A DNA stretch of 64,000 nt from an uncultured Gammaproteobacteria bacterium (GTDB taxonomy: Bacteria > Patescibacteriota > Microgenomatia > Woykebacterales > RBG-16-39-9b), in contig OZ246414.1 in assembly GCA_965231125.1 (NCBI GenBank), positions 757,440 to 821,439 of the forward strand, written 5' to 3'. This document shows positions 8,631 to 42,461 of the stretch, in pieces. Under the pieces are notes generated by a model. It made no database searches and was not told the DNA's origin. It worked only from the letters and a program-made list of their open reading frames with translations. Position 1 is the stretch's first letter; each line of letters begins with the position of its first letter. The position numbers and the translations under genes are program-made.

Positions 8631-8765
8631 GGCCTAAATTGTATCACACACTTGGTGTGTCAATAAAATGCTTAGCTAGGCAGAAGTTGCCTAGCGCAGC
8701 GCGCGAGAATACCTGAGAAACCAAAAAGCTTGCAGGTTTCGAAGTTATGGAGCGAGCTATAGGGT

Positions 8766-9098
8766 TTGTGGTATAATGTCCTAGTCAAAATAGACTTCAA
8801 TTGCACCTGTAAAATCTATCTGAAAGAAAGGACCGATATGAAGAAAAGCGACATCCGGTTTCTAGTCATCACTACGGTGATTGGCGCTACGTGCTTGGCG
8901 CTTGGCATCGCGACTGCCGTCGTGACGGGCCCGACTGACTATTTAAGTAAGTGGGCGAGTTGGGAGCAGAATTTCACTTGGCAGCAAGTTGCAGCCACGG
9001 AAGCCATTTGCATCGGAGCTGCATTTCTAACTATCGTGGCGGGGCTTCTCTGGCTAGAGAATGACCAGCCAAGAAACAACCACAACCACGCCAGCTAA
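8766..9098 (+). CDS. small membrane protein (hypothetical); the likely start is the internal MKKSD near 8838
   Basis: Two predicted TM helices. A GA-rich stretch sits before the internal ATG. No family recognised. Confidence 0.3.
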   Translation: MWYNVLVKIDFNCTCKIYLKERTDMKKSDIRFLVITTVIGATCLALGIATAVVTGPTDYLSKWASWEQNFTWQQVAATEAICIGAAFLTIVAGLLWLENDQPRNNHNHAS

Positions 9099-9954: not shown

Positions 9955-11439
9955 TCAAGGCGTGGCAAAAAACATTCCACAAAGCCTGCAGTATTTAGAT
10001 GTGTTCTTACACTATACGCCTAATAAAAAGGAAAATCAACCCCGCTGTGTTATCCCGAACTAGTTTCTGGATCTCTCATAGCTTCACTCTTCGAGATGAT
10101 GGCTGACGATTGGAAGGGTCGAGGGGTGGAGCAAAAAACTGCACCCCTCGACATAGGACCGCTGAAGATGCAGATGGCTCGTCAGATCTACATCTAAAGC
10201 GGAGAGGTTGGCCAACCGCTTGCGAGAATGACTGGTGGTCGGTTAACCAACCTAGTCAACCACACCTGAGTTAGGACGCTAACGTTCCTGGTGTGGTTCG
10301 GTTACAAACTTTTCAACGGGAGGGCGATGGCGGTACGAACCGATTCTAAGTCTCAGGGAACGTAGACTTTCTCCTGGAGGTCCTGGGAGTTGAATCAGCC
10401 GACCACCATCACCGCCCTACAGAACAAACCGACTGGGCCCTCGCCTTATGTGCGCCCTATCGAATTGCTCACGAAAAAATAAATACAGTAAGTTCTCTCC
10501 TCTAAATAAAACATATTCTCTTTTTACCGACGTGTCAAGCGATTGATTGTTTGTTGGAAAATTGAAAATGGTCCCTAAAAAGGTGGAGGAGAAGTAGAGG
10601 GGTCCAACTAGTGCTGGTAGGGGACGGCGCTTTCTTCTCCTCCGGGGTTGCTACACCAGGTTCGTGGGGAAGCATGAACCTAGCGATAGCCAAGTTTGGT
10701 GACTAAGAATGTCTGGCTGACAATCCTAGCCGTTGCACGTATTTTGACCTCCTACCGAGAAGTTCATTCACTTCCCAATTCACGCGCCTTCTTCCTTCAT
10801 TCAAATGCATCACCCCTTTCTCCAAAAAGAGAGTTTGACGATGAGGGAGGGGACTCACTGTGGAAAAACCATCAGCGGTTCATCGTCATTGTTCAAACCG
10901 TTGCAGCGCTTATGCGGGACTGGATACCGGCGGTGGTTGCCGTGATACAACTATACTCCAACTTACAACCGCTATGGCGATCGTACAGCCAGAGACCTGC
11001 AACCTTGCCCCTCCCCTTTCAAGGTGCAATAGATAAAATTTAAACTTTCTTTTGGAAAAAGTCAAATGAAGTAGAGGAAAAAAATTTGGGCTAGGGAAAA
11101 CTATCCTGTTTTACCCTAGCCCGACCGGTTAGACTCGTCACCTCCGCAACTTAAGTCAGGTTACGAAGAACTCTCCATGTAGTCCGCTTAGGCCTTCTGG
11201 TCGCCAGAAGCGAACCGGGATTCGGGAACAGCTCGGGCAGCACCCCCCACGCCGATCCTTCTTGATGTTGATAACGACAATTCATATGTTCGTCATCCTT
11301 TCACAATCGAAAAGCACACGCCACTAGCGTATGCACCGTTGGGATTGCTCTTTTCTGCCCTCCTTTCTCATTTGCTCACTGCAGGTTTACTTAACCCACT
11401 GAATTCTAAGTTACAGCTTTTTTAGGGAAAAATCAATAG

Positions 11440-11474
11440 CTTAAGCATATAGTCGTAGACTATGCTTAAGCGCA
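11440..11474. other. perfect 11-bp stem hairpin in an ORF-free region
   Basis: gcttaagcata tagtcgtagac tatgcttaagc. The adjacent cccgccagctggcggg is a second perfect palindrome. Confidence 0.6.
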
Positions 11475-12037
11475 GGATCCGCAATACCTGGCCCGCCAGC
11501 TGGCGGGGCAAAAGGTATGAGGATTCTATAGGAAGGATAAGGCAAGGGAAGTGCTTCGAAGGTAAAGCCCTACCCTTGCCAGTTGCTTGGGCTCGTTTTT
11601 TTTTTTGCTCCACGCAGCAGACCTAACTAAGTATTACCTTGTCCTCACTCCCTTCCGTCAATTTGGTAAAAGTGTGTTCCCCTTCACGTCACACACTGTA
11701 TTTGGCTGGCAGCCGGAGAGGTTAGTAGCAAGCTGCCCCGTGCCTCATGTCGCCGTGGATAACGGGATGTCGGCGTCGCTGTACCCGATTCAGTAAGGGC
11801 TCGTTGTCACACCTTTTGAATTTAGCCGGCACAAGACCCTCTCCTCAATGCTACTGCCTCGACCAACCGCCCTAATGATAGATCGAATTTATGAAAAAAT
11901 CAAGAGTATTGGTGTACATTCTAACAACACAATCAGTCATTCTGGCTTGTCCAGAATCAGGTTGGTTTAGACGCGGATTCTGGAATCACTCCGACAAGTC
12001 ATACTAGCCTTCGCTCACCAGAATGACAAAAGTTGGT

Positions 12038-13126: not shown

Positions 13127-13720
13127 TTAGTATTCTCTTCTTCCTTCGATCGCGCGGGAAAGGGTTACTTCGTCGGCGTATTCTACATCGCCACCGACCG
13201 GAAGTCCATGGGCAAGTCGCGTGACGCGTACGCCAAGAGGAGAAATAAGTTTTTGGATGTACATCGCGGTGGATTCTCCCTCAACGGAAGGGTTTGTCGC
13301 CAAAATAATTTCTTTAACGCCGTCTTTTAGACGAGGGAAAAGTTCTTTAATGTGGAGTTCCTCCGGGCCAATATTGTCCAAGGGTGCGATCGCCCCGTGA
13401 AGAACGTGGTAAAGGCCTGTGTAGCTGTGCGAGCGTTCCAGAGCCAAAACATCCAAAGGCTCCTCCACTATCATTATTTGGGAGCGGTCGCGGCCGGCCG
13501 AGGCACAGACAGAGCAAGGGTTTTCCTCGGCAATGTTAAAACAAGTGGTACAAATAATGGTTTTTTCTTTCAGCTCAGAAATGGCAGCCGCTAGTACATC
13601 TGAACGTTCTTTTGGGGCGTGAAGTAAAAAATAAGTAAGCCGTTGCGCGCTCTTTGGCCCAATTCCCGGAAGTTTTTCAAATTCGGCAATTACGGCCTCA
13701 ACTGATTTGGGAATTCTCAT
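13127..13720 (-). CDS. recR: recombination protein RecR
   Basis: 197 aa. Helix-hairpin-helix GIGPKSAQRL, Cys4 zinc finger CTTCFNIAEENPCSVC, and a Toprim-like C-terminus. Confidence 0.9.
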   Translation of the reverse strand: MRIPKSVEAVIAEFEKLPGIGPKSAQRLTYFLLHAPKERSDVLAAAISELKEKTIICTTCFNIAEENPCSVCASAGRDRSQIMIVEEPLDVLALERSHSYTGLYHVLHGAIAPLDNIGPEELHIKELFPRLKDGVKEIILATNPSVEGESTAMYIQKLISPLGVRVTRLAHGLPVGGDVEYADEVTLSRAIEGRREY

Positions 13721-13795
13721 TATAAATATTTTACCACATCAAAAAGAAAGCGCCCAAGGGAAAAATCTTGGACGCTCGCGACAACACTGCGATGT

Positions 13796-14377
13796 TCACG
13801 GCTTCGTAACTAGACTGTTGTAGAATTTTAACACTATAACAATCAGTCCGATGGTGCCAAGAACCACCAGGATAAGATTACCGGGTGGAGACCAATAGGT
13901 CCCGAATGTTCCAAAAAGGGCTCGATCGGTCGTAATCTTGATAGCGCTGCCAGCGCCTACGGCATTTCCGGGGATCTCCACGCTGTCCACCGACCTACCA
14001 AATCCGGACTTGTAGATCGTTTCGGTTGAGATGTAGTAGTCTACACCATCGCCAGGCGGAGCGATTGCGAATTTTGTCAAGTACACCTTCGCATCGGTGT
14101 AGGACAAAGTTACCACCCTGGGCTTGAGATTCTTACTGGCAAACTCCGCTGGTTTAAGCCTCTGGCTAATTCCATCGCTAGGAAAAGTTACATCGTTGCT
14201 GATTGCATACGGAATCCCCTGAATGTCTGGGCGCTTGATACTCACCTCGGCCTTACCTGTCTTTGGGAAAACCTGCCACCCGGAAATCCCACCCAAGACC
14301 AGCAACAAAACCACTGTGATCACCCGCCCAGTACGGACAAAAAATGGGTCAACCTCGGAAAGTGTCGTTGCGTTCAT
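13796..14377 (-). CDS. hypothetical exported/membrane-anchored protein (G+C higher than neighbours)
   Basis: 193 aa with an N-terminal TM helix. Also a C-terminal hydrophobic segment GNLILVVLGTIGLIVIVL. Confidence 0.35.
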   Translation of the reverse strand: MNATTLSEVDPFFVRTGRVITVVLLLVLGGISGWQVFPKTGKAEVSIKRPDIQGIPYAISNDVTFPSDGISQRLKPAEFASKNLKPRVVTLSYTDAKVYLTKFAIAPPGDGVDYYISTETIYKSGFGRSVDSVEIPGNAVGAGSAIKITTDRALFGTFGTYWSPPGNLILVVLGTIGLIVIVLKFYNSLVTKP

Positions 14378-14513
14378 CTCCCCTTCTTTCTAGACGTGAA
14401 AACGCCAAGCGATTGGAACTCTTCCTTTTGTGGGTAATTATACCATTGAAAAGCAAAGTGGAGAAATAATTGAAGAAAAAGTGAGGGCGTCCTGACAAAA
14501 GTCAAAAGACGCC

Positions 14514-14963
14514 CTAGGTTAGTACTCGTGGGCCAAGTTGCCTTTCGATCTCGACGCTAAGCTTTTCCAAACTCACATCGAAACCCGCAATAAGCGAAAC
14601 TCCAAGGCCCCGGTCGTTGATTATTAAGCCGAGCAAAAGGTAGGCCGGGCTAATTTTCCCGCCAAAACGTTCTGCTTCTTGGCCGGCGTACTGTATACTT
14701 TTCCAAACAGCCGGCGAAGGTCTTATTTCTCCCGGAGCAGTCTGACCGTTACGATCTAACTTGCCAAGCCTCTTGCGCACCTGCCTGAGCTGGACGCCTG
14801 CCTCAGTGAGAACTTTTTCCGGCAAGCTCCCCTCCTGGCGCAGTAAAGCGACCAGCAAGTTTTCGGTCCGAACGCGGCCGTTACCAACTCGGCGGGCCTC
14901 CTTTTCGGCAAACTGCAAGGTGACACACGCCTCTTCGTCGAAGTTGTCAAGATTTACTTGCAT
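14514..14963 (-). CDS. Clp N-terminal (Clp_N) repeat domain protein
   Basis: Two Clp R-domain repeats (...TENLLVALLRQEGSLPEKVLTEAGV... and ...PAYLLLGLIINDRGLGVSLIAGFDV...). G+C higher than flanks. Confidence 0.5.
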   Translation of the reverse strand: MQVNLDNFDEEACVTLQFAEKEARRVGNGRVRTENLLVALLRQEGSLPEKVLTEAGVQLRQVRKRLGKLDRNGQTAPGEIRPSPAVWKSIQYAGQEAERFGGKISPAYLLLGLIINDRGLGVSLIAGFDVSLEKLSVEIERQLGPRVLT

Positions 14964-15876
14964 GACTAACCTTCGGTTTTAGGAAAAGGCTTGCCGCTTG
15001 CATCCACTCGCCTGGGGACCCGAGAATTCGCTGGATTGCGTGCTGTCCCAACTGCTCTGTTACCCGACGGACATCTGCCTCCTGGTCATCCGTCCAGTTG
15101 CAAGGAAACGGAGAAGCGTCTAAATCCAGCGTTGCGGTTTCTGGATCCCAATCTAGCTCGAGTGTGTAGATTTTGGCCTGGTACTTTCTGGCAAGTCGCG
15201 CCGGAAACGTAACTACACCGACTTCAGCATTACCCACTTGGCAAACAACGTCGTCCGGCCTTGGGTCACGAAAGATGTCAATCAAAACCATAGTGACATC
15301 TCCCAACAAAAGGCGTTGCTCGGCTCTTTCGGAAGTTCCCCTGCCCCTGATGTGCTCCAGATGCGCACCGTGATACTCTCGCGAACGGTCGAAAATCCGA
15401 CCTACAAAACGGATGGATTCGACCACAACCGTAAGATTCAGATCGAGTTCTTTTATTTTTGGTGCAGCTGCGTCGAAACGGCCAACATGGTTGGCCACTA
15501 AAACGATCGGTTGTCCAGCTTTGTGGAGTCTCGATACCTCGAACATGCCCAAACCAACCCGGACTGTATCTTTGAACAGATCTGGATCCTTGTGGAAAAG
15601 CACAAAAGTGCAATCTTCAGCAATTGTGCGCGCCACTTGTCTCGCTTGTTCGCGAATCTCATCACCATCTAAATCGGGCCGCAGTAGCGAAAGGTTTTTT
15701 TCAATCTGGCGCCGCCTTCGTCGCCAAATCCTAAATATCCGATCGGCCCAAACCCGAGCTTTAGTGAGCCTCTTTCTTCCCCTGGCAGTAAAAAGGAAGA
15801 ATAAAGCCACCAACACTACTACTATCACAAAGGCAAGCTCCAAAAAGCCCACCAATTTGCGGATCCTCCCAGTCAT
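14947..15876 (-). CDS. lysophospholipid/lipid A-type acyltransferase (LPLAT superfamily)
   Basis: 309 aa. N-terminal TM, then an HX4D-like motif VANHVGRFD and the general layout of LpxL/HtrB-PlsC acyltransferases. G+C higher than flanks. Confidence 0.45.
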   Translation of the reverse strand: MTGRIRKLVGFLELAFVIVVVLVALFFLFTARGRKRLTKARVWADRIFRIWRRRRRQIEKNLSLLRPDLDGDEIREQARQVARTIAEDCTFVLFHKDPDLFKDTVRVGLGMFEVSRLHKAGQPIVLVANHVGRFDAAAPKIKELDLNLTVVVESIRFVGRIFDRSREYHGAHLEHIRGRGTSERAEQRLLLGDVTMVLIDIFRDPRPDDVVCQVGNAEVGVVTFPARLARKYQAKIYTLELDWDPETATLDLDASPFPCNWTDDQEADVRRVTEQLGQHAIQRILGSPGEWMQAASLFLKPKVSHASKS

Positions 15877-15966
15877 GATTTCTCCTCCCTTTATGAATCC
15901 ATTGGATTTGCATTATTATCTTGGCTAGTAGCCAAGATATTATCAATTTTTTGGGAAAAAGAAAAC

Positions 15967-16248
15967 TCAGCCTTTTAGAAGGTCTTGAAGGCCGCCGAGA
16001 CCGCCCATCATGCCTTGCATTTTTTTGGCGGCCACTTTTTGGGCTTCGTCCATGGCTTTATTAATCGCGTCTTTCAGTTTATCCGGCTCAATATCCGCTG
16101 GGTAAGAAAGATTCAAGATTTTTTGCGCGCCATTAATTTTTACTTTTACGTCCCCGTGCTCCACTTCGATAATTTCAGTTTCCAGCTCTTTTTTCATCTG
16201 GTCCGCCTGCTTTTTTAAATCATACATTTGTTTTAATTTGTCAAACAT
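15967..16248 (-). CDS. ybaB: YbaB/EbfC nucleoid-associated protein
   Basis: 93 aa, MFDKLKQMYDLKKQADQMKKELE...GMMGGLGGLQDLL. Directly downstream of dnaX, as in many bacteria. Confidence 0.85.
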   Translation of the reverse strand: MFDKLKQMYDLKKQADQMKKELETEIIEVEHGDVKVKINGAQKILNLSYPADIEPDKLKDAINKAMDEAQKVAAKKMQGMMGGLGGLQDLLKG

Positions 16249-16269: not shown

Positions 16270-17982
16270 TTAATCTAATTTTCCAAATATCCCGGCAGGG
16301 TCTACTTCGTCTCTGGTTTCTAGCTTCGGCTCTTGCTCCACCTTTTTCGGTCTCTCAACTAGTACCGATTTTATTTTAACAGAAGTCTGCAACTGCTTTT
16401 CCAATATCGCTTCCAGAATAGAACGATATTTTGGTTCTTCCACCATGTCTTTATGAAATCGGTAGGAAAATTTTAGAAAAAGGGTGTCTTCTTCCACTCT
16501 GTCCGGGATGGCGGCGCGGAGAAATATTTCTAAAGATTTATTTTGGCTGCGAATTTCTTTTAAAATAGCCGGCCACGCATCCTTAACTTTTTTTAAAATC
16601 TTCTCTTCGGAAACTTCTGTTTTCTTGCCGTTAAAACTGTCATCCTGAACTTTATAGTCCGAAGGACGCAAGCTCTGCTTATTCAGGATCTGCTTCTCAC
16701 TCTTGCGAGAACCACTCGACTTAATTTTTTTTTGTTCTTCCTTTGCTCGATTCCTTAATAGCTTGATCGCTGGCTCTTCCTTCTCCTCTGTCCCTTTTGC
16801 TTGCCCCGCGGAGCCCTGGCGAAGTGGGGTCTCCTTCCCAAATTGCTCTCCTGATGGCTCGATTGCTCGATCACTTTCTACCTGAAAATCGCAGGCTTCA
16901 ACCAAAGCAAGTTCAAGTGGAAGCTGGGGAATAGTCGCCATCGCTAGCTCTTCAATAGCTTTCGTGAATAGACCAATTAATTTATTCAATCTTCCACTGT
17001 TTATTTGATTAGACAGCAAAATAATATTAGAATAAACTTCTGGGTTTACGTCTTTAACCAACTCTTCCCCTAGTCCATTTTTGATAAGCAATATTTTCCG
17101 TAATATTTCGATAATTGCCTCGTTTAGAACTCGTACATTACCGCCACCATTGATAAAATCATCGAGCCACAAAAGCGCCTCTTTAATTTTACGCCCCTCG
17201 GTAGCCTCCAAAAGCTCTAGAACTTGGGAAATATCTTTTTTCCCAAGCAGTTCCAAAACTTCTTCCTTAGTAGCCAGCGGGTTTACTCCGGCCACCTTTT
17301 CTAAAAGCACTTCGGCATCGCGAAAGGCGCCATCACCGGCTTTGGCAATTTCGGTAAGTGCCTCTGCCCCAATTTTCCAACCTTCGGCTTTGACTTCTTT
17401 TTCTAACTTTTCCTGGATACTTGCCGCCTTTGGGCGGACAAAATTAAAACGCTGCGATCGGGAAATAATAGTTCCCGGTAGTTTATGAGGCTCGGTTGTC
17501 GCCAAAATAAAAACGGCGTGGGCCGGCGGCTCTTCTAAAGTTTTTAGCAAAGCGTTGAAAGCTTCGGCCGTAAGCATGTGGGCTTCGTCAATTATGTAAA
17601 CTTTGTAACGGCCGGAACTCGGGGACAGCTTAATTTTTTCGCGCAGTTCCCGCACATCGTCAATACCACGGTTGGAAGCGGCGTCAATTTCAATCAAATC
17701 TAGAAACCGGCCGGCAGCGATCGCCTCGCAATTTTCGCATTTGCCACATGGTTCTCCAAATTTTTCTTCACCCTTTCCCCTGCCCCCTAAACCCTTGCAG
17801 TTCAAAGCTTTCGCGAGAATTCTTGCGGTTGAAGTTTTCCCGGTTCCTTTTGGGCCGGAAAAAAGATAGGCGTGGTGGATTTTTCCGGATTCAAGTTGTT
17901 TAACTAAAGTTTCGGTTACCTGCGGCTGGCCAACAACTTCGGAAAGTTTTTGCGGTCGGTATTTGCGGTATAAAACATCCAT
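16270..17982 (-). CDS. dnaX: DNA polymerase III subunit gamma/tau
   Basis: 570 aa. N-terminus MDVLYRKYRPQKLSEVVGQ. Walker A GPKGTGKTSTARILAKALNC. Zinc module CGKCENCEAI. DEAH-like IIDEAHMLT. Confidence 0.9.
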   Translation of the reverse strand: MDVLYRKYRPQKLSEVVGQPQVTETLVKQLESGKIHHAYLFSGPKGTGKTSTARILAKALNCKGLGGRGKGEEKFGEPCGKCENCEAIAAGRFLDLIEIDAASNRGIDDVRELREKIKLSPSSGRYKVYIIDEAHMLTAEAFNALLKTLEEPPAHAVFILATTEPHKLPGTIISRSQRFNFVRPKAASIQEKLEKEVKAEGWKIGAEALTEIAKAGDGAFRDAEVLLEKVAGVNPLATKEEVLELLGKKDISQVLELLEATEGRKIKEALLWLDDFINGGGNVRVLNEAIIEILRKILLIKNGLGEELVKDVNPEVYSNIILLSNQINSGRLNKLIGLFTKAIEELAMATIPQLPLELALVEACDFQVESDRAIEPSGEQFGKETPLRQGSAGQAKGTEEKEEPAIKLLRNRAKEEQKKIKSSGSRKSEKQILNKQSLRPSDYKVQDDSFNGKKTEVSEEKILKKVKDAWPAILKEIRSQNKSLEIFLRAAIPDRVEEDTLFLKFSYRFHKDMVEEPKYRSILEAILEKQLQTSVKIKSVLVERPKKVEQEPKLETRDEVDPAGIFGKLD

Positions 17983-18151: not shown

Positions 18152-18517
18152 ATGACCGTCGAGGAAGCGTTTACCAAAAGACTTCACAACGTTCCGGTAA
18201 CTACTAGTGGCATAGTTATAAAAATTCTGGCTGATGACAACGGTGAAACCCCTCACCAACGGTTTATTATTGAGCTGCACCGCGGCCATACGCTGTTAGT
18301 CGCGCACAATCTTCTCCGGGCTTACCGGGTGCCCGTGAAACTCGGCGATAAAGTCGAAATTCACGGCACTTACGTTTGGAATAAATACGGTGGCATTGTT
18401 CACAACACCCATCATTACGGCGGCGAGTGCGTGGGCGGCACATGCGACCCTCACGAAGACGGCTACATAAATTTCTTTGGATTAAAAAAACCCAACGTAG
18501 AAAAAATTGCCTCTTAA
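18152..18517 (+). CDS. DUF3465-family protein
   Basis: 121 aa. HQRFIIEL, LLVAHN and GGIVHNTHHYGG match the conserved blocks of DUF3465. Confidence 0.55.
   Translation: MTVEEAFTKRLHNVPVTTSGIVIKILADDNGETPHQRFIIELHRGHTLLVAHNLLRAYRVPVKLGDKVEIHGTYVWNKYGGIVHNTHHYGGECVGGTCDPHEDGYINFFGLKKPNVEKIAS
18439..18489. repeat. 51-bp direct repeat, copy 1 (inside the 3' end of the DUF3465 CDS)
   Basis: cacatgcgaccctcacgaagacggctacataaatttctttggattaaaaaa recurs exactly at 20284-20334. Confidence 0.85.
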
Positions 18518-18652
18518 AAGTGAGAGCCCCGATTTTAGGTTAAACCGAGGGCTCGATCACTCTCTTTCTTGCTATAGTAGTTTGTTTTGAGTTCTCTTCC
18601 CTTCTGCCTGGTTAGAGAGACGGATCCAGTACTGGTGATTCTTGTTACATTT

Positions 18653-19216
18653 CTAGCAGCTCCAAACTCCCTCCCAGCTGCTGCCTCCCCCGTGACACTC
18701 ACATTTGCAGAGGGTGAGACGCTCGACCAAAGCCTTGCCTCGTGCCGTTGTTACCAGGTCGAAGAAGGGTCTGTCTATCCAGGACAGTACTATCAGCAAA
18801 CACTCTCGACAAGCGAGACTATCCTCCCAACCGAAACGACCACTTCTTCTGGCCTCGGTGTGACGGGCCTCTTTATGGAAGGATAAGACCCAGTCAAAGA
18901 TCGCTAGGTCGTATTCGCGCACCACTTCTCCGAAGCACTTCGGGCAAAAGCTGACCTCTTCTCCACTACTAAGTTCGACGGTCTCAATTTCACAGAGACC
19001 TGGATGGCTGGCTTTCTCCAGGACCCACTGATAATCATCAGGAAACTCCTCCTTACTGATAACCAGAAGGCAGGCGCTGCAGACGCGAACTTGATCGCCA
19101 AGAAAGAGACACTTCGTCGGGGCACCTCCAGAACAATCTTTGGCTATCTGTACGTTGCACCAGTCCCCACCTTTCGCAAGCTTAACTACTTCGTCCAAAG
19201 TATCTTCCTTCCTCAA
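18653..19216 (-). CDS. cysteine-rich hypothetical protein (multiple CxxC pairs), paralog 1
   Basis: 187 aa. DWC..IAK.C, GDQVRVCSACL, FCPKCFGE, ACRECLL and LVTTARGKALVE are shared with the adjacent paralog. Confidence 0.45.
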   Translation of the reverse strand: MRKEDTLDEVVKLAKGGDWCNVQIAKDCSGGAPTKCLFLGDQVRVCSACLLVISKEEFPDDYQWVLEKASHPGLCEIETVELSSGEEVSFCPKCFGEVVREYDLAIFDWVLSFHKEARHTEARRSGRFGWEDSLACRECLLIVLSWIDRPFFDLVTTARGKALVERLTLCKCECHGGGSSWEGVWSC

Positions 19217-19817
19217 AACTCTCTACCAACGCTTTACCGCGGACTGTTGTCACCAGACTGAAGAAAGTCGGATCTACTTTCCACAAAGCCAACAGTAGGC
19301 AGTCTCGGCAAGCCCGAAGAGACAGTTCTGTATCATCCAGACCACCCTTTGGCTCGGTGTGATGGTTCTCGTCGTGATACGACAAGACCCAATCAAGAGC
19401 GGCCGGATCTTGGCTTAGAAGTACCTTACGTAGGCACCCCGGACAGAAGGTTACTTCTTCGTTGCCAACGTCCGCTGTAACTCTCTTACAAGAGCCTTCA
19501 TGACTAGTTCCCTTTAAGGTCCATTCCTCATCATCGTTAAGATCTTGAAGACAAGGGTCGCAGATTCGCACTTGCCCGTCGAGAAGAATGCACGGTGCAG
19601 GTATACCAACCTTCCCAGGACAATACTTAGCTATTTTTAAGGTGCACCAATCTGAACCTCCTTCGAACTCAACCTTTTCTCCCATGGATCTCCTCCTAGG
19701 CCAATTTTGGCCAAAAAAATACCCCCAAGATGGGGGTCGCAGAACCGAGTATTCACCTGTTGCTGGTGGTCTCATTCTGAGTTTTAATTCTAACACAAGC
19801 AAAGGAGGCTTTGTCAA
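19182..19817 (-). CDS. cysteine-rich hypothetical protein, paralog 2 of 18653-19216
   Basis: 211 aa. DWC.LKIAKYC, DGQVRICDPCL, FCPGCLRKV, ACRDCLL and LVTTVRGKALVE align with paralog 1 along the whole length. Confidence 0.45.
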   Translation of the reverse strand: MTKPPLLVLELKLRMRPPATGEYSVLRPPSWGYFFGQNWPRRRSMGEKVEFEGGSDWCTLKIAKYCPGKVGIPAPCILLDGQVRICDPCLQDLNDDEEWTLKGTSHEGSCKRVTADVGNEEVTFCPGCLRKVLLSQDPAALDWVLSYHDENHHTEPKGGLDDTELSLRACRDCLLLALWKVDPTFFSLVTTVRGKALVESFEEGRYFGRSS

Positions 19818-19919
19818 GACAAACTTTGAAAAAGAAAGCCCCGAAACGAAAAGAGCTTGAGTAATAATTTATTTGAGTAATTTAACCTTGGGTACAGCGA
19901 TTAATTGCAATACCCAAGG

Positions 19920-20225
19920 TTACCTAGCCACTCCCTTTATCAGTAATAAAGGAAAGGCAACAGCTGCAAGAAAACACACTAGTGCGATTGAAACCTCGAT
20001 CACCCTATTTTCCCATTCATCAAAGTTTAGAATGTCTCTGGCGAGTCTTCCCCACCACCAGAAAAAGGCCCCTGTTAAACCAACCCAGAAAATTAAGAAA
20101 GCTAGCCCCAACGGCACTGGATAAACCACCAACAACCGAAGGAGCAACCCCGTAACCAGTATGACCAGGAGAAGACCAACCCCAGCTAGTAAGACCTTCA
20201 AAGGTCCCGTATTGAAGAAAATCAT
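19920..20225 (-). CDS. small membrane protein (hypothetical)
   Basis: 101 aa with three hydrophobic helices and W-rich loops. Confidence 0.3.
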   Translation of the reverse strand: MIFFNTGPLKVLLAGVGLLLVILVTGLLLRLLVVYPVPLGLAFLIFWVGLTGAFFWWWGRLARDILNFDEWENRVIEVSIALVCFLAAVAFPLLLIKGVAR

Positions 20226-20283
20226 CTCGCCTCCTTAAAACCGTTTCGCCTCTGACTAACTTCCAACTTACCGTTTATTTTAA

Positions 20284-20334
20284 CACATGCGACCCTCACG
20301 AAGACGGCTACATAAATTTCTTTGGATTAAAAAA
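20284..20334. repeat. 51-bp direct repeat, copy 2 (displaced original 3' end of DUF3465)
   Basis: Exact match to 18439-18489. In the DUF3465 frame it would read ...TCDPHEDGYINFFGLKKSTTA-stop. Confidence 0.85.
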
Positions 20335-20414
20335 GTCTACTACTGCCTGAAAACATTTAGAGCCCCGAGAAAAGGCGTTCCTCGAGGCTCTTTTACTAAC
20401 CTACTTTCACCTGG

Positions 20415-20657
20415 TCAAGGTATTAGCCAGACCAATATTGCTGGTATCACGACTAACAACCCGAGAGAGTAGATCAGAAACCCGGTGCCTTTCATGGCAT
20501 TACTAATCCCAACAGTCGGTACATACCCCGACGCAAGGAAGAATATTAGTCCAAGGACAACCACCGGGATCCCCACAGCAAGAGCTCCAACCACCTCTCT
20601 TCTATTCTTTCTTGCTAGCCTCATCGAGTTCGTCTCAAAGGCGATTTCTCGTGCCAT
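20415..20657 (-). CDS. small membrane protein (hypothetical)
   Basis: 80 aa with two TM helices. Confidence 0.3.
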   Translation of the reverse strand: MAREIAFETNSMRLARKNRREVVGALAVGIPVVVLGLIFFLASGYVPTVGISNAMKGTGFLIYSLGLLVVIPAILVWLIP

Positions 20658-20831
20658 TACACTCCTTCGGAAATTAATCTCTATCCTCTAAGCTGAGTTT
20701 AATCAATTTGGGCTTTGGTGTCAAATAAATTTCTTAGTTACCTTTTGCTGTTTTTAATTCTCCAACTGCTTGGTGAAGTAGTTGAACATCTATTTCGAAG
20801 AATGAAGCCTCGCAACAAAATGCTACGAGGC

Positions 20832-21131
20832 CTAAACGAAACGGTCCAGTGCAAGAAAAATTGTGGCGAAGACAAAAGACGCCACCAAGTACACCGTGAC
20901 TCGGGTATCTTTCTTTGTCTTCAAGATGTCGAGCAAGTAAGCACCAACTAGGAAACAAAGCAGCGCTATCCCCCAACTCGGTACTACGAGAACCCAGTAG
21001 GGAAATTTTAGTGTTTCTATCCTCCCGATTCCCCACAAAGCTACTTGTACACTGCCAAAGATCACGATCGCCCAGTGAACCACCCCCGGCCTGGATGGTT
21101 CAGATGAGGTGGGCGGTTTGGCTGCCGTCAT
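20832..21131 (-). CDS. small membrane protein (hypothetical)
   Basis: 99 aa with three TM helices. It ends 10 nt before the MBL hydrolase start. Confidence 0.35.
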   Translation of the reverse strand: MTAAKPPTSSEPSRPGVVHWAIVIFGSVQVALWGIGRIETLKFPYWVLVVPSWGIALLCFLVGAYLLDILKTKKDTRVTVYLVASFVFATIFLALDRFV

Positions 21132-21140
21132 TTCTCCCTC

Positions 21141-21818
21141 CTAACCATTTTCTTGATCCTCGATCCAGCTTCTAACCGAGTAGTTATTGAAACGCTCGTA
21201 ACGAATCGTGGTTGCCTTTTGGTGACCGGGTTGGACGATCGTTTCGTCAGGCAGTTGAAAGAGCTTTTCGGCGATGCTGCGCATCTCTGTGTCGAAATCG
21301 CCAGGCCTAGTAATTCCGACTGCTCCAGCAAAAAGCGTATCTCCGCTGAAGAGCACATTTACATCTGGGCAGAATAGGCAGATGCTGCCGGGCGTGTGCC
21401 CTGGAGTCTCCAACACCAGCAACTGCAGACCTTCAACTTCAATTAGGTCTCCCTCTTGAGGGTGAAAATCCGGCTGGCGAATCGGTTGTGTCTTGCCGAC
21501 TGCACTTGGCGACCTGTTATGAGCCTTAGTGAGAAGCGGTAGATCAGCCCGATGCAGAAGGAATGGTGCCGCGGTCTTTTCCACTATTTCATTGACACCA
21601 ATCACGTGGTCGAAATGACCATGTGTTGACACAATCCTTTTGATAACCACACCGAGATCTGCTGCTAAACTTAGTATTTTATCAGCTTGTTCGGTCCGAA
21701 AATTAAAAGGATCGATACAGATTGCCTCGCGACTCGCCCGAGAACCAATTATGTAGCAGTTGGTCATGTAACCAACTACAACCTTACCGAAAGCAAGCTC
21801 GCTGACTTCTTCGGTCAT
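21141..21818 (-). CDS. MBL-fold metallo-hydrolase (glyoxalase II-like)
   Basis: 225 aa. HxHxDH motif STHGHFDHVIG. Also ETPGHTPGSICLF and a C-terminal QPGHQ. Confidence 0.8.
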   Translation of the reverse strand: MTEEVSELAFGKVVVGYMTNCYIIGSRASREAICIDPFNFRTEQADKILSLAADLGVVIKRIVSTHGHFDHVIGVNEIVEKTAAPFLLHRADLPLLTKAHNRSPSAVGKTQPIRQPDFHPQEGDLIEVEGLQLLVLETPGHTPGSICLFCPDVNVLFSGDTLFAGAVGITRPGDFDTEMRSIAEKLFQLPDETIVQPGHQKATTIRYERFNNYSVRSWIEDQENG

Positions 21819-22003: not shown

Positions 22004-22028
22004 TTCTGAGAACCTTCGAAATATTATA

Positions 22029-35866: not shown

Positions 35867-35936
35867 AATTTACCTCTTCTGTCATTCTCGCGAAAGCGAG
35901 GATCTGGATTCTCAGTCAAGCCGAGAATGACAAAAT

Positions 35937-36410: not shown

Positions 36411-36439
36411 GGTTAATCAGTTAATCCGCTTGCCCGACA

Positions 36440-36514: not shown

Positions 36515-36516
36515 GG

Positions 36517-37242: not shown

Positions 37243-37677
37243 CTAAGGATCCCTCGGGGTGCTGAATAGGGTGAGGACTTGTGACACCTCGAAGGACGGT
37301 CCATCCCCTACCACCAGAAGATCGGCGTCTTCGTCTGTAAGAGCTTCCGCCTTCTTTGATAGAGCGTCGTGGCGCTTGTTCATCTCCTTACCCTTGAAAC
37401 GGTTAACATGGCACCAGACGCGGGCTGGGTGTTCTGGGTGTCCGTGTAGAGAAAGGCACAATTTGTGTGGAACAGACGCCGGCCGCAGGCCGCGTATCCG
37501 TCCAAAGGGTATGTCGCGCACCTCCCCACACGCCCTGACCGCTATGTAATCCAGCCTTTCAACGACCGGAAGTTCGCTCAAAGTGTTAACCTCCTCGTTA
37601 TCTCCCGTGATAAGCACTCCCTCATGGCTTGAACAGCCTGATTTGTCTATTATATATAAACAAATCACACCATTCAA
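37243..37677 (-). CDS. hypothetical protein (G+C higher than flanks)
   Basis: 144 aa ORF with no recognisable family. Gene status uncertain. Confidence 0.25.
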   Translation of the reverse strand: MNGVICLYIIDKSGCSSHEGVLITGDNEEVNTLSELPVVERLDYIAVRACGEVRDIPFGRIRGLRPASVPHKLCLSLHGHPEHPARVWCHVNRFKGKEMNKRHDALSKKAEALTDEDADLLVVGDGPSFEVSQVLTLFSTPRDP

Positions 37678-37768: not shown

Positions 37769-37775
37769 TTCTGCT

Positions 37776-38276: not shown

Positions 38277-38888
38277 TTACGTTGTTACCTTGTACCGCGA
38301 CCCGAAGGGTGAACGGAACCTTGGTAACGGTATTCGAACCCAGATGCGGTCTCGGAACAAGAACGCAGTTATGGCTAGTAGAACTGCCATCACAATTCCT
38401 GCTCCGAATGAGTAAATGAGAAACCCCGGGGGGCTTCCTCCACTCTTCGCCATCTGTTCACCAGCTCCAACCGACGCCTGCGTAATCGCAGAAGTCAGCG
38501 GAGGCGGTAGGACTGTAGCCGATTCGCCGGTGAGCGCTGGGTAGCGGAACAATTGATGCCGCCCGGCATCCACAGTCGAAAAAGCTTGGGTCCATGTGAC
38601 CGGCAACCAGTAGGTGTCCCCCGCGACGATGATTGGATCGCCAGACGCAGAGAAGTGGATTTGCGGATTGACCGCAACCAACTCCTCGCACCTTTGCGCG
38701 AACCCGTCGTAGAAGACCTCTTCCGCTAGTCCCCAGCAACTGTTTCCAGGCTGCGCCTGGAAGTACCAGGGACTCGGATTAACCGGTACCGTTTGGGCGG
38801 CGCTTCCTCGGGCGCCAAAGAAAATCTGGGTCGCTACAAGCAACACCAGAATTCCCACCCCGCCAATCATGTGGCGGTTTCGCCGCAT
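38277..38888 (-). CDS. hypothetical exported protein with N-terminal signal/TM and C-terminal TM anchor (G+C higher than flanks)
   Basis: 203 aa. N-terminal IGGVGILVLLVATQIFFGA. C-terminal GFLIYSFGAGIVMAVLLAITAFLF. Confidence 0.4.
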   Translation of the reverse strand: MRRNRHMIGGVGILVLLVATQIFFGARGSAAQTVPVNPSPWYFQAQPGNSCWGLAEEVFYDGFAQRCEELVAVNPQIHFSASGDPIIVAGDTYWLPVTWTQAFSTVDAGRHQLFRYPALTGESATVLPPPLTSAITQASVGAGEQMAKSGGSPPGFLIYSFGAGIVMAVLLAITAFLFRDRIWVRIPLPRFRSPFGSRYKVTT

Positions 38889-41320: not shown

Positions 41321-41881
41321 TTAATGACCTACAACAGCTTCCCAGGCTTTATTTTGTTGCTCGATAAAGCGGTCGAGTCGGTAAAAGACTGAGCAGAGCA
41401 AGTAGGCGTAGCGACGATTTTGCACGATTTCGTTGGCAACTCGTTGGTACAATCGAGCGTAGTGCTGCATCTGACGAAATCCAGTAGGAGGCCTTGCCAG
41501 GTAACGGCCTGTCTCGCTTCGCTGAAAGGCAGCAACTGGCACGTCGGTGCTCGCCCAAGGGGGAACGCTCTCCCCCCATCTGGATAAGATTTCTCTTAGA
41601 GCTATGGAGCGTTGCCCTGTCGATGACCCCAGAAGGGCTATTTCCAACCCAGTTTCTCTTTCGTAGTCGTTGCTGGGCTGGCTTGATCGGTAGATCACCT
41701 GGAGAAGGGATTCGTTGTGGTCCGTGTCGACCATAGCGTTGTACAGTTCGATCGTTGTTCGTAGCCCTCCGTGCGGGTACAAAGTACACTGCGGTATTAC
41801 CTCGATGAGAGAGCGGATGAAAAGTTGTCCCCATGGAATCCTCTCAAACCGCTCGACCGTTAACGCTTGTTTTTTGGGCAT
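41321..41881 (-). CDS. hypothetical protein (G+C higher than flanks)
   Basis: 186 aa with no recognisable family. Lies between topA and dprA. Confidence 0.35.
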   Translation of the reverse strand: MPKKQALTVERFERIPWGQLFIRSLIEVIPQCTLYPHGGLRTTIELYNAMVDTDHNESLLQVIYRSSQPSNDYERETGLEIALLGSSTGQRSIALREILSRWGESVPPWASTDVPVAAFQRSETGRYLARPPTGFRQMQHYARLYQRVANEIVQNRRYAYLLCSVFYRLDRFIEQQNKAWEAVVGH

Positions 41882-42053: not shown

Positions 42054-42461
42054 ATGTCAGCTTCCGCAAAAAGAGTTGTTCTCGCTTGTGTCGACCCCAG
42101 AATCCTGGATGTGCTCTACAGAAAAGCCAAGGAGGGTTTGGATGGAAATAAGCTAATCTTGTTAACCGAGCCTGGGGCGGCCATTTACTTCCAAATTTGT
42201 CTACCTAGGCTGGAGATGGCGGTGAATGTTCTTGGTGCAGATGAAGTGTGGCTAGTCCAACACGAGGATTGCCAGGGCTGTATCAAGAGATACGGCGAAG
42301 AAAAGAAAGATATGCATCTTCATCACCTTAACAAAGCCGGCTTGTACATCTCCGAGAATTTCCCAAGTGTGACGAGACTGCGACTCTTTTACATGGCCCT
42401 GGTTTCGGATGACGAATGGACTTTTGAAGAAATCCGAGATCATGTACCGGCCCGGATTTAG
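42054..42461 (+). CDS. hypothetical protein with a beta-carbonic-anhydrase-like CxDxR...HxxC pattern (weak)
   Basis: 135 aa. VVLACVDPRI (CxDxR) ... HEDCQGC (HxxC). One of the few plus-strand genes. G+C higher than flanks. Confidence 0.3.
   Translation: MSASAKRVVLACVDPRILDVLYRKAKEGLDGNKLILLTEPGAAIYFQICLPRLEMAVNVLGADEVWLVQHEDCQGCIKRYGEEKKDMHLHHLNKAGLYISENFPSVTRLRLFYMALVSDDEWTFEEIRDHVPARI

What the first reader, a model, noticed from the sequence alone, without database searches (positions are those of the whole stretch)
13750..15960. Higher-G+C islands interrupt conserved gene pairs (dnaX-ybaB | recR and dprA | topA)
The canonical dnaX-ybaB-recR arrangement is split by three genes of visibly higher G+C. 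These are an LPLAT acyltransferase, a Clp_N-repeat protein and an exported hypothetical, at about 13796-15876. Likewise dprA and topA, often adjacent, are separated by two higher-G+C genes at 41321-42461, one on the opposite strand. A further higher-G+C block at 37243-38888 sits between the dTTP cluster and topA. These look like horizontally acquired cargo inserted at operon junctions.
Basis: partly seen in the sequence, partly recalled or inferred. Interest (0 to 1): 0.5.

Follow-up and report, generated by a model that had tools for sequence, protein, structure and literature searches.

The report
Old accessory genes between ybaB and recR
Three slightly G+C-richer genes that split the dnaX-ybaB-recR cluster in this tiny-genome (Patescibacteria) bacterium are real, but the acyltransferase among them has sat at or beside this spot in related genomes for a long time, so this is an ordinary flexible gene slot and not freshly imported DNA.

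Summary
13796-15876 carries a PatA/LpxL-type acyltransferase, a stand-alone ClpC-N-domain protein and a two-TM orphan between ybaB and recR. Its G+C is 0.507 against 0.441±0.025, and no same-size background window reaches that. The blocks at 37243-38888 (0.530) and 41321-42461 (0.495) are also raised.

The interpretation as acquired cargo is only partly supported. There are no tRNAs, integrases or flanking repeats. The G+C-normalised dinucleotide signature is native-like. High-G+C segments make up 27.6% of the window. The acyltransferase's few homologues (37 among 1.84 billion representatives) include genes at this same ybaB|recR junction in related Woykebacteria-like genomes, and one paired with Clp_N beside dnaX. 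One gene in each of the other two blocks is also conserved in position in a relative.

In the relatives examined, genes without Pfam matches have GC3 about 0.14 higher than Pfam-matched genes. I therefore read the raised G+C as a lasting property of accessory genes at flexible junctions, which lose and perhaps swap genes. That reading is an inference.

An unflagged block at 18490-20334 does look recently inserted: it has 51-bp perfect direct repeats, and the wider Mfd|DUF3465 gap has an aberrant dinucleotide signature.

Interest is low to moderate.

The parts
16270..17982 (-). dnaX (DNA polymerase III tau/gamma). Conserved flank upstream of the island.
   Evidence: Matches PF13177, PF12169 and PF20964. 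47-51% identical to relatives. G+C 0.443.
15967..16248 (-). ybaB/ebfC. Last conserved gene before the island.
   Evidence: Matches PF02575. 62-77% identical in relatives. G+C 0.422.
15914..15942 (.). 14+14 nt palindrome in the 90-nt ybaB-acyltransferase spacer. Possibly an operator or a ybaB terminator stem.
   Evidence: Inverted repeat I1, 93% complementary. Spacer sequence with a strong ribosome-binding site, AAAGGGAGGAG. The function is inferred.
14947..15876 (-). PatA/LpxL-type (LPLAT) acyltransferase, 309 aa, with one N-terminal membrane helix.
   Evidence: PF03279 at 32.2 bits against a gathering score of 22.3. A family profile matches mycobacterial PatA 5f2t at E = 4e-18 and LpxM 5kn7 at 1e-7. 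H130 of the H-x4-D motif and D200 are invariant in 20 homologues. G+C 0.505, GC3 0.497.
14514..14963 (-). Stand-alone double Clp_N (ClpC N-terminal domain-like) protein, 149 aa. Its start overlaps the acyltransferase stop by 17 nt, so the two are probably co-transcribed.
   Evidence: PF02861 in two stretches. Residues 7-145 align with the B. subtilis ClpC N-domain at E = 3e-12. The overlap follows from the ORF coordinates. A Clp_N gene also sits beside the acyltransferase homologue in L162. G+C 0.536, GC3 0.567.
14378..14513 (-). Spacer with a terminator-like hairpin (GGCGTC...GACGCC followed by a T run) after the Clp_N gene, and an extended -10 (TGGTATAAT) plus a ribosome-binding site ahead of the next gene.
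   Evidence: Read directly from the sequence. The consensus scan did not list this hairpin, so this is inference.
13796..14377 (-). Orphan membrane-anchored protein, 193 aa, with hydrophobic segments at both ends.
   Evidence: No match in Pfam, NCBIfam or PHROGs. No homologue in any fetched locus except the same organism's second assembly. G+C 0.503, GC3 0.572, with coding-type position asymmetry.
13748..13777 (-). Intrinsic-terminator-like hairpin after the orphan gene. An extended -10 (TGTGGTAAAAT) for recR follows it.
   Evidence: Terminator scan: 11-pair stem plus a T run. Sequence.
13127..13720 (-). recR. Conserved flank downstream of the island.
   Evidence: Matches RecR_HhH, Toprim_4 and RecR_C. 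70-84% identical in relatives. G+C 0.490.
41321..41881 (-). Orphan gene, 186 aa, between topA and dprA.
   Evidence: No family match. No homologue in relatives. G+C 0.522, GC3 0.561.
42054..42461 (+). Small protein, 135 aa, with a weak sub-threshold resemblance to beta-carbonic-anhydrase-like families. It lies on the opposite strand.
   Evidence: PF20393 at 21.8 bits and PF00484 at 19.9 bits, both below their gathering scores. A homologue (phmmer 3e-10) lies directly upstream of topA on the opposite strand in L170.
38277..38888 (-). Orphan exported or membrane protein, 203 aa. It is the G+C-richest gene in the window.
   Evidence: G+C 0.572, GC3 0.618. No family match and no homologue in relatives.
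37243..37677 (-). ORF with a TTG start, probably called too long. Its C-terminal part is conserved upstream of the first dCTP-deaminase-like gene. The real gene may be a roughly 46-aa ORF beginning MNKRH with its own ribosome-binding site.
   Evidence: tblastn of residues 48-142 against L169 16266-16556: 41% identity, E = 1e-12. Frame inspection.
18439..20334 (.). A 1.85-kb block with three orphan genes (18653-19216, 19182-19817, 19920-20225) is bracketed by perfect 51-bp direct repeats at 18439-18489 and 20284-20334. The first repeat is the 3' end of the DUF3465 gene.
   Evidence: Repeat D1, 100% identical, with a 76% extension D5. The Mfd|DUF3465 gap 18518-22028, which holds most of the block, has dinucleotide deviation 127 against 58±23, with 0 of 241 background windows as high. 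Mfd and DUF3465 lie about 35-45 bp apart in L085 and L087-L089, and overlap in L164.

Best explanation
The window comes from a small-genome Patescibacteria (CPR) bacterium close to 'Candidatus Woykebacteria'. The three genes at 13796-15876 are long-standing accessory genes, and I find no sign that they arrived recently. They occupy a flexible slot between ybaB and recR.

Shown:
- The slot is empty in some clade members.
- In others it holds an acyltransferase alone, an acyltransferase with a polysaccharide deacetylase and two beta-lactamase-like genes, or a beta-lactamase-like gene.
- The window's version holds an acyltransferase and a Clp_N protein whose reading frames overlap by 17 nt, then an orphan membrane-protein gene.

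Inferred:
- The common ancestor already had an envelope-related cluster in this slot.
- Lineages lost different parts of it. Some may have swapped versions by recombination through the conserved flanking genes.
- The acyltransferase and Clp_N genes form one transcription unit. The orphan gene is a separate unit with its own promoter-like and terminator-like sites.
- The acyltransferase acylates a membrane glycolipid or scavenged lipid, as PatA does. Its catalytic His and acidic residue are conserved. The roles of the Clp_N protein and the orphan are unknown.
- The raised G+C is a steady property of poorly conserved accessory genes in this clade. Orthologues that have diverged to 30-36% identity are still G+C-richer than their flanks. 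Its cause is not established.

The blocks at 37243-38888 and 41321-42461 are the same kind of thing.
For: Lineage:
- RecR is 70-84% and TopA 68-75% identical to Woykebacteria-like MAGs.

Occupancy of the slot:
- ybaB and recR are adjacent (47-88 bp apart) in L083, L086-L089 and L003. L001 and L002 have a small membrane ORF there. L085 and L082 have a beta-lactamase-like gene orthologous to one in L164 (phmmer 1e-82 to 1e-104).

Acyltransferase homologues:
- Only 37 were found among 1.84 billion representatives.
- The best is at dnaX-ybaB-[gene]-recR in L163.
- The fourth best is at dnaX-ybaB-[gene-deacetylase-beta-lactamase x2]-recR in L164/L165.
- Another sits beside a Clp_N gene and dnaX in L162.
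- A 25-aa fragment ending at a stop upstream of the L082 beta-lactamase-like gene aligns to profile positions 279-302 of 305.
- RecR of L163 and L164 is 74-76% identical to the window's.

G+C in relatives:
- The acyltransferase is G+C-richer than its locus in every genome: 0.474 against 0.404, 0.489 against 0.465, 0.532 against 0.468, and 0.483 against 0.461.
- Pfam-less genes in L168, L169 and L170 have GC3 of 0.52-0.59 against 0.39-0.44 for Pfam-matched genes. The pooled test over five loci gives p = 1e-7.

Absence of insertion marks:
- Native-like dinucleotide signature.
- No flanking repeats, no tRNA genes, no mobility genes.
- The same arrangement appears in a second, independent assembly, L081.

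Biochemistry:
- The family profile matches PatA at E = 4e-18, and H130 and D200 are invariant.
Against: - Several close relatives, L083 among them (RecR 82%), have an empty junction. Inheritance from the ancestor therefore needs several independent losses (a low-resolution RecR tree).
- The acyltransferase distances do not fit the core-gene distances. L163 and L164 are closest in RecR (83%) and DnaX (51%). Their acyltransferases are only 26% identical, while the window and L163 share 35%. The L164 type is closest to one from a Parcubacteria genome at a different site. This points to paralogy or exchange.
- The Clp_N protein and the orphan have no homologue at this junction elsewhere. In L162 the Clp_N-acyltransferase pair is in the reverse order and upstream of dnaX.
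- A steady-state cause for higher G+C in accessory genes is unproven. Recurrent import from G+C-richer donors would also give a clade-wide pattern.
- Only 64 kb of this genome was available as compositional background.
Confidence: 0.6

Rival explanations
1. Cassette exchange within the clade. The ybaB|recR slot, and likewise the topA-flanking slots, is a recombination hotspot. Alternative accessory cassettes are swapped among related Patescibacteria by uptake of DNA and homologous recombination through the conserved flanking genes. The raised GC3 is a by-product of frequent recombination (GC-biased gene conversion), or reflects a shared accessory gene pool with higher G+C.
For: - Junction content is patchy and mixed among genomes with 71-84% RecR identity.
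- There are two acyltransferase subtypes whose distribution conflicts with core-gene distances. The subtype found in Woykebacteria GWB1_45_5 and GWA1_44_8 is closest to one in Wildermuthbacteria.
- The Clp_N-acyltransferase pair sits at a different side of dnaX in L162.
- The window encodes pilins and DprA, which are competence-type functions.
- A published survey reports that most detected transfers in Patescibacteria occur between Patescibacteria (PMC12455944).
- A native dinucleotide signature with raised GC3 fits donors of the same kind.
Against: - No recombination breakpoints or population data were examined.
- The incongruence rests on pairwise identities of four or five very divergent sequences.
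- The orthologues are so divergent (26-36%) that any exchange must be ancient.
- Biased gene conversion has not been tested in any way here.
Confidence: 0.22
2. One reading: the three genes are recently acquired foreign cargo from a G+C-richer donor, inserted between ybaB and recR in this lineage only.
For: - G+C and GC3 are higher than in any same-size background window.
- The junction is empty in L083 and in L086-L089.
- The Clp_N protein and the orphan have no detectable close relatives.
- The window does contain one real insertion with 51-bp direct repeats at another junction, so insertion does happen in this genome.
Against: - Acyltransferase homologues lie at the identical junction in L163 and L164/L165, with a fragment in L082.
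- No close homologue exists anywhere that could serve as a donor. The word-index search of 5.8 billion clusters returned only the protein itself, and the best hit of the full HMMER scan is 36% identical.
- Named homologues are all Patescibacteria.
- The dinucleotide signature is native, and there are no repeats, tRNA genes or mobility genes.
- The orthologues in other genomes show the same G+C offset.
Confidence: 0.1
3. There is nothing here. The G+C difference is chance, an amino-acid composition effect, spurious ORFs in non-coding DNA, or an assembly chimera.
For: - The shift is only +1 to +1.9 sd at gene level.
- 27.6% of the window is in the high-G+C state.
- 37243-37677 is probably called too long.
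Against: - The third-codon position carries the shift, with GC3 0.57 against 0.43.
- 0 of 276 and 0 of 292 same-size windows reach the block values.
- Two of the three genes have significant domain matches, and the acyltransferase has conserved catalytic residues.
- Identical gene order and proteins occur in an independent Logan assembly.
Confidence: 0.04

Closest known systems
Genomic islands and the flexible genome of Patescibacteria (for example the survey of 125 aquifer genomes, PMC12455944)
   Same: Blocks of poorly conserved genes with atypical base composition lie between conserved housekeeping genes. The survey reports that most detected transfers are between Patescibacteria.
   Different: The flagged blocks lack integrases, tRNA targets and repeats. 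They have a native dinucleotide signature. They contain genes kept at the same junction in several divergent genomes. They look old and resident, not recently transferred.
PatA, the mycobacterial phosphatidylinositol-mannoside acyltransferase (PDB 5f2t), and LpxL/LpxM lipid A late acyltransferases (PF03279)
   Same: The family profile aligns nearly end to end with PatA (E = 4e-18) and in part with LpxM (1e-7). The His of the H-x4-D motif is invariant. An invariant Asp aligns with the Glu of PatA's AERD segment. That this Glu is PatA's catalytic Glu200 is from my memory of the PatA literature, not checked here.
   Different: Sequence identity is very low. The single sequence finds no solved structure. 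NCBIfam equivalog scores are far below their cut-offs, for example 32.6 against 209. The family is tiny, and its named members are all CPR. The substrate is unknown. I infer from general knowledge, not from a test here, that the organism probably makes neither lipid A nor PIMs.
Stand-alone Clp_N proteins (mycobacterial ClpC2, plant ClpT 'double Clp-N motif protein') and the ClpC N-terminal domain
   Same: There are two Clp_N repeats. Residues 7-145 align with the B. subtilis ClpC N-domain (E = 3e-12). Weaker matches are ClpC2 9p2p (1e-4) and 4y0b (4e-3). There is no AAA+ module.
   Different: In the printed alignment the first repeat keeps the Thr-Glu of ClpC's TEH segment (TEN). The second repeat has PAY in place of TEH. 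From memory, these Glu residues form the phospho-arginine sites, so only one site may be intact. The pairing with an acyltransferase, seen here and in L162, is not a known arrangement to my knowledge.
Variable cell-envelope loci held between conserved housekeeping genes (for example capsule or O-antigen loci). This is an analogy from general knowledge only.
   Same: The position is fixed between conserved flanks. The content varies between relatives and is envelope-related (acyltransferase, polysaccharide deacetylase, beta-lactamase-like genes). The base composition differs from the core.
   Different: This locus is much smaller, at 0-5 kb. It is G+C-richer than the core, not poorer. It is empty in many relatives. 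No evidence of allelic replacement was obtained here.

Membership tests
Recently acquired genomic island (horizontal cargo) | Base composition differs from the host genome | tested here: met
   G+C is 0.507, 0.530 and 0.495 against 0.441±0.025-0.031. 0 of 276, 0 of 292 and 5.5% of same-size windows are as high. GC3 is 0.50-0.62 against 0.43.
Recently acquired genomic island (horizontal cargo) | Genome signature (G+C-normalised dinucleotide abundance) differs from the host | tested here: not met
   Deviation is 60, 78 and 101 (x10^-3) against background 69±27, 76±28 and 88±30. 55%, 41% and 30% of background windows are as deviant. The repeat-flanked region 18518-22028 scores 127 against 58±23.
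Recently acquired genomic island (horizontal cargo) | Mobility marks: integrase or transposase, tRNA target, flanking direct repeats | tested here: not met
   There are 0 tRNA genes. No mobility domain was found in any of 58 ORFs. Only short imperfect repeats of 13-28 nt flank the three blocks.
Recently acquired genomic island (horizontal cargo) | Absent from the same site in close relatives | tested here: inconclusive
   The site is empty in L083, L086-L089 and L003. Acyltransferase homologues lie at the same junction in L163 and L164/L165, with a fragment in L082. The Clp_N protein and the orphan were not found at the junction elsewhere.
Recently acquired genomic island (horizontal cargo) | A close homologue in a plausible donor outside the lineage | tested here: not met
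   The word-index searches found only the proteins themselves. The best full-scan hit is 36% identical, and all named homologues are Patescibacteria.
PF03279 / LPLAT acyltransferases (LpxL, LpxM, PatA) | Profile match above the curated threshold over most of the domain | tested here: met
   32.2 bits against a gathering score of 22.3, residues 23-292 on profile positions 23-287 of 295. The family profile matches PatA 5f2t at E = 4e-18 over positions 41-298.
PF03279 / LPLAT acyltransferases (LpxL, LpxM, PatA) | Catalytic H-x4-D/E motif and a second acidic residue | tested here: met
   H130-VGRF-D135 is present in the window protein. H130 and D200 are invariant in 20 homologues. H130 aligns with the His of PatA's HSGNWD, and D200 with the Glu of AERD.
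PF03279 / LPLAT acyltransferases (LpxL, LpxM, PatA) | Equivalence to a named enzyme (PatA or LpxL), with substrate and activity | tested here: not met
   NCBIfam equivalog models score 18-33 bits against cut-offs of 209-343. Activity cannot be tested with these tools.
Clp_N double-repeat domain (ClpC/ClpB N-domain; stand-alone ClpC2 or ClpT type) | Two Clp_N repeats forming a complete N-domain | tested here: met
   PF02861 in two stretches. Residues 7-145 align with ClpC residues 10-149 at E = 3e-12.
Clp_N double-repeat domain (ClpC/ClpB N-domain; stand-alone ClpC2 or ClpT type) | Stand-alone, with no AAA+ ATPase module | tested here: met
   The ORF is 149 aa. It is flanked by the acyltransferase stop and a 136-nt spacer.
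Clp_N double-repeat domain (ClpC/ClpB N-domain; stand-alone ClpC2 or ClpT type) | Ligand-binding residues (phospho-arginine sites) and a Clp ATPase or protease partner | tested here: inconclusive
   The first repeat keeps T-E (TEN against TEH) and the second has PAY. The assignment of these residues to ligand sites is from memory. No Clp ATPase or ClpP gene lies in the window, and the rest of the genome was not available.
Conserved dnaX-ybaB-recR cluster | ybaB immediately followed by recR | tested here: not met
   The gap is 2246 bp in the window. Among 82 related loci, 48 have a gap of 150 bp or less, 30 have 400 bp or more, and 9 have more than 1 kb. dnaX-ybaB is also split by more than 1 kb in 12 of 52.

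The most novel reading that the evidence does not exclude
Woykebacteria-like Patescibacteria keep a two-compartment genome. The first compartment is a low-G+C core (GC3 about 0.40). The second is fast-evolving accessory genes at fixed junctions that stay G+C-richer (GC3 0.50-0.75), even in orthologues diverged to about 30% identity. This is the opposite of the usual A+T-rich bias of accessory genes. It would point to a gene-class-specific process, for example GC-biased gene conversion at cassettes repeatedly exchanged through DNA uptake, or selection holding core genes below the mutational equilibrium. The long non-coding stretches of about 0.48-0.49 G+C would fit the second idea.
Probability: 0.2. 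Interest if true: 0.55.

Novelty: new member of a known kind. Interest (0 to 1): 0.3.

Why it matters
As first proposed, this would be a routine example of horizontally acquired islands. The re-analysis shows that raised G+C alone misleads here. The flagged blocks are old residents of flexible junctions, while the one block with real insertion marks was not flagged and is only mildly G+C-rich.

Two things may be of modest use to specialists.
1. A very small PatA-like acyltransferase family, whose named members are all CPR, is linked to dnaX-ybaB-recR and sometimes to a Clp_N protein, a polysaccharide deacetylase and beta-lactamase-like genes. This gives a handle on envelope or lipid remodelling in organisms thought to scavenge lipids.
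2. Accessory genes are G+C-richer than core genes in the relatives examined. If this holds genome-wide, it makes the question of mutational equilibrium against recombination-driven G+C in reduced genomes testable.

Tried and rejected
- Word-index homologue searches with the acyltransferase and the Clp_N protein returned only the proteins themselves. No phylogeny of the Clp_N gene could be made.
- P0005 lies on a 928-bp contig with no DNA held, so it gave no context.
- A single-sequence search of the acyltransferase against solved structures gave nothing useful. The family profile was needed.
- NCBIfam and PHROGs gave nothing for the orphans.
- I tested whether the ORF-less 2.08 kb at 9955-12037 is a decayed CorA gene, since relatives have CorA between yqeY and cysS. 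tblastn found no trace. Rfam found nothing there or upstream of cysS.
- I looked for att-like repeats around the three flagged blocks and found none beyond chance-size matches.
- The RecR neighbour-joining tree is too poorly resolved to count gains and losses. I use it only as a sketch.
- I considered assembly chimerism and rejected it, because an independent Logan assembly has the same order and identical proteins.
- I considered amino-acid composition as the sole cause of the raised G+C and rejected it, because GC3 carries the shift.


Full report
**What the window is**

Almost all genes lie on the minus strand. Overall G+C is 0.449. No tRNA, tmRNA or Rfam family was found.

RecR is 70-84% identical, and TopA 68-75% identical, to proteins of metagenome-assembled Patescibacteria. 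Several of these are named 'Candidatus Woykebacteria'. The acyltransferase and TopA of the window occur on a 915-kb NCBI contig. The acyltransferase is also on an independent Logan assembly (L081) with the same gene order and identical proteins, so the arrangement is not an assembly artefact.

**Checking the observation**

- dnaX is at 16270-17982 and ybaB at 15967-16248.
- 14947-15876 matches PF03279 (32.2 bits, gathering score 22.3).
- 14514-14963 matches Clp_N in two stretches.
- 13796-14377 has no family match and has hydrophobic ends.
- recR is at 13127-13720.
- dprA and topA are separated by 41321-41881 (-) and 42054-42461 (+).
- 37243-37677 and 38277-38888 lie between topA and three tandem dCTP-deaminase-like genes.

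The G+C is higher.
- Gene values are 0.50-0.57, with GC3 0.50-0.62. The gene mean is 0.453, with GC3 0.430 and sd 0.073.
- No same-size background window reaches the 0.507 of 13796-15876 (0 of 276) or the 0.530 of 37243-38888 (0 of 292).
- 41321-42461 (0.495) is matched by 5.5% of windows.

Two qualifications apply.
- A two-state HMM puts 27.6% of the window, in 13 segments, into a high-G+C state of 0.51 against 0.425. These segments include parts of dnaX, dprA and two S8 peptidases. The segment over this island also covers recR.
- The dinucleotide signature, once normalised for base composition, is ordinary for all three blocks.

**Synteny**

I fetched 160 loci around RecR relatives and mapped the window's proteins onto them.

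In the clade with RecR identity of about 70% or more, the ybaB|recR junction takes several forms:
- Empty, with 47-88 bp between the genes, in L083, L086-L089 and L003.
- A small membrane ORF in L001/L098 and L002.
- A 330-364-aa membrane-anchored beta-lactamase-like gene in L082 and L085.

None of these loci showed the window's three genes by tblastn.

More widely, 48 of 82 related loci have ybaB and recR within 150 bp. 30 have 400 bp or more between them, filled with unrelated genes. dnaX-ybaB is split by more than 1 kb in 12 of 52. Interruption of this cluster is therefore common in Patescibacteria.

**Where the acyltransferase's relatives are**

The word-index search found only the protein itself. 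The full HMMER scan of 1.84 billion representatives found 37 homologues, the best 33-37% identical. Their contexts are decisive.
- P0003 (L163) lies at DUF3465 | dnaX-ybaB-[acyltransferase]-recR-yqeY.
- P0006 (L164/L165) lies at dnaX-ybaB-[acyltransferase, polysaccharide deacetylase, two beta-lactamase-like genes]-recR. The protein is named from Woykebacteria GWB1_45_5 and GWA1_44_8.
- P0004 (L162) follows a Clp_N gene, divergent from dnaX-ybaB.
- P0007 is in a Parcubacteria genome at an unrelated site.

RecR of L163 and L164 is 74-76% identical to the window's. That is as close as the relatives with an empty junction.

The beta-lactamase-like genes of L082 and L085 are orthologues of the one in L164 (phmmer 1e-104 and 1e-82). 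In L082, the nearest relative found (RecR 84%), the contig begins with a 25-codon reading frame. It ends at a stop just upstream of that gene and aligns to the last 24 positions of the acyltransferase profile (13.4 bits, E = 1.6e-6 for that single test).

The simplest reading is that an envelope-related cluster already occupied this junction in the common ancestor and has been differentially lost.

This is not clean vertical descent. The acyltransferases fall into two subtypes: window/L162/L163, and L164/Parcubacteria. Their distribution conflicts with RecR and DnaX distances. The Clp_N-acyltransferase pair lies on the other side of dnaX in L162. Old paralogy or exchange among Patescibacteria remains possible.

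**The other two blocks**

TopA relatives gave three contexts.
- In L169 (Woykebacteria GWB1_45_5), dprA and topA are also separated by two small Pfam-less genes. topA and the deaminase genes are separated by four genes.
- In L168, topA is followed by hicAB and seven small Pfam-less genes before the deaminase genes.
- L170 has six Pfam-less genes downstream of topA and lacks dprA nearby.

Most of these genes are not recognisably homologous between genomes, with some exceptions:
- 42054-42461 has a homologue directly upstream of topA on the opposite strand in L170 (3e-10).
- The C-terminal part of 37243-37677 is conserved just upstream of the first deaminase gene in L169 (41%, 1e-12).
- L168 h191 matches L170 h199 (1e-23).

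These junctions are thus occupied throughout the clade, with partly conserved and partly variable content.

**Composition across the clade**

In every relative the acyltransferase is G+C-richer than its locus. In L168, L169 and L170 the Pfam-less genes have mean GC3 of 0.594, 0.518 and 0.557. The Pfam-matched genes have 0.386, 0.430 and 0.441. Pooled over five loci and centred per locus, the difference is 0.14, p = 1e-7.

In the window, genes with no homologue in the relatives' syntenic stretches have GC3 0.518 against 0.432 (p = 5e-4).

Orthologues diverged to 26-36% identity must have saturated synonymous sites. A donor's GC3 should have been erased long ago. That expectation is an inference from the standard amelioration argument. 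The persistent offset, together with the native dinucleotide signature, therefore argues for a steady-state cause and against a relic of recent import. I could not determine the cause. Candidates are biased gene conversion at frequently recombining cassettes, a shared G+C-richer accessory gene pool, or selection keeping core genes A+T-richer than equilibrium. Long non-coding stretches here are 0.48-0.49 G+C, above the core genes' GC3.

**A positive control in the same window**

The convergent Mfd|DUF3465 junction is a few tens of bp wide, or overlapping, in L085, L087-L089 and L164. In the window it holds 3.5 kb.

Within it, perfect 51-bp direct repeats lie at 18439-18489 and 20284-20334. The first is the 3' end of the DUF3465 gene. 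A 76% extension follows each copy. The repeats bracket three orphan genes, two of which are Cys-rich paralogues (phmmer 4e-41). A decayed 47-nt copy of the mfd 3' end brackets a membrane ORF and a metallo-beta-lactamase-fold gene.

This region has a strongly aberrant dinucleotide signature of 127 against 58±23 (0 of 241 windows), yet a G+C of only 0.478. So insertion does leave recognisable marks in this genome, and the flagged blocks lack them.

**What the three genes probably do**

A profile of 20 acyltransferase homologues matches mycobacterial PatA nearly end to end (E = 4e-18) and LpxM more weakly. The His of H-x4-D (H130) and D200 are invariant and align with PatA's HSGNWD and AERD segments. 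NCBIfam equivalog scores are far below their cut-offs. It is therefore a divergent member of the superfamily and not a PatA or LpxL orthologue. I infer a membrane-bound acyl transfer to a glycolipid or scavenged lipid.

The Clp_N protein is a complete ClpC-type N-domain without an ATPase (E = 3e-12). Its start overlaps the acyltransferase stop by 17 nt, which suggests co-translation.

The orphan has promoter-like and terminator-like sites of its own, and recR appears to have its own extended -10. These regulatory readings are inferences from sequence.

**Verdict**

General knowledge of genomic islands in Patescibacteria already exists (PMC12455944). I rate the finding as a new member of a known kind, with interest about 0.3.

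Noticed in passing
window 18439-18489 and 20284-20334 (block 18490-20334); also 20753-20799 against 22036-22082: Perfect 51-bp direct repeats bracket 1.85 kb holding three orphan genes, two of them Cys-rich paralogues (18653-19216 and 19182-19817). The first repeat is the 3' end of the DUF3465 gene. A decayed 47-nt copy (72%) of the mfd 3' end brackets a membrane ORF and a metallo-beta-lactamase-fold gene. The region's dinucleotide signature is far outside the window's range. It looks like one or two real insertions at the Mfd|DUF3465 junction, with no integrase present.
   Followed up: partly
window 9955-12037: A 2.08-kb stretch has stops in all six frames (longest open stretch 117 codons) and G+C 0.48. 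It lies between the DUF1003 gene and yqeY, where L001/L098 have about 420 bp. On the minus strand it has promoter-like sites (TTGAYW, 17-18 nt, TAnnnT) at 11903, 11436, 11065 and 10538. Each is followed by a 30-44-codon ORF with a good ribosome-binding site and by hairpins. There is no Rfam match and no trace of the CorA gene that relatives carry in the yqeY-cysS interval.
   Followed up: partly
window 8672-8781 (minus strand, upstream of cysS 7143-8630); L164 14080-14189; L168 13352-13497: A 110-nt non-coding element just upstream of cysS is 87% identical to the stretch upstream of cysS in L164/L165. CysS protein identity to the related genome L163 is only about 62%. The element ends in a hairpin plus T run and is more weakly similar to a stretch inside the topA-downstream block of L168. 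There is no Rfam match, T-box included. It may be an undescribed cysS leader.
   Followed up: partly
window 35327-37116: Three tandem dCTP-deaminase/dUTPase-like paralogues (about 26-34% identical across types), followed by thyA and a thymidylate kinase. Each is conserved one-to-one in L168 and L169 (64-84% identity).
   Followed up: no
window 44195-58193: A run of large secreted or surface proteins: two S8 peptidases, an M12-like peptidase, and NHL, Big_7, CBM96 and dockerin-like repeat proteins. The two S8 genes (0.534-0.536) are as G+C-rich as the flagged islands. Similar Big_7, fn3 and cohesin proteins lie upstream of topA in L168-L170.
   Followed up: no
L164 5668-10391 and L165 3817-8540: In the Woykebacteria-like loci L164/L165 the ybaB|recR slot holds the acyltransferase, a polysaccharide deacetylase and beta-lactamase-like (PF13354) genes. 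The deacetylase and the 429-aa beta-lactamase-like protein share a similar region (phmmer 4e-36). This suggests a shared N-terminal or linker module.
   Followed up: no
L168 11978-16865: Downstream of topA in the closest TopA relative there is a hicAB pair. Seven small Pfam-less genes follow it, with GC3 up to 0.755 (locus G+C 0.464). This is a much stronger compositional island than any in the window.
   Followed up: no
window 37243-37677: This ORF has a TTG start and is probably called too long. Conservation with L169 covers only residues 48-142. A 46-codon ORF (MNKRH...) with its own ribosome-binding site lies at its 3' end.
   Followed up: partly
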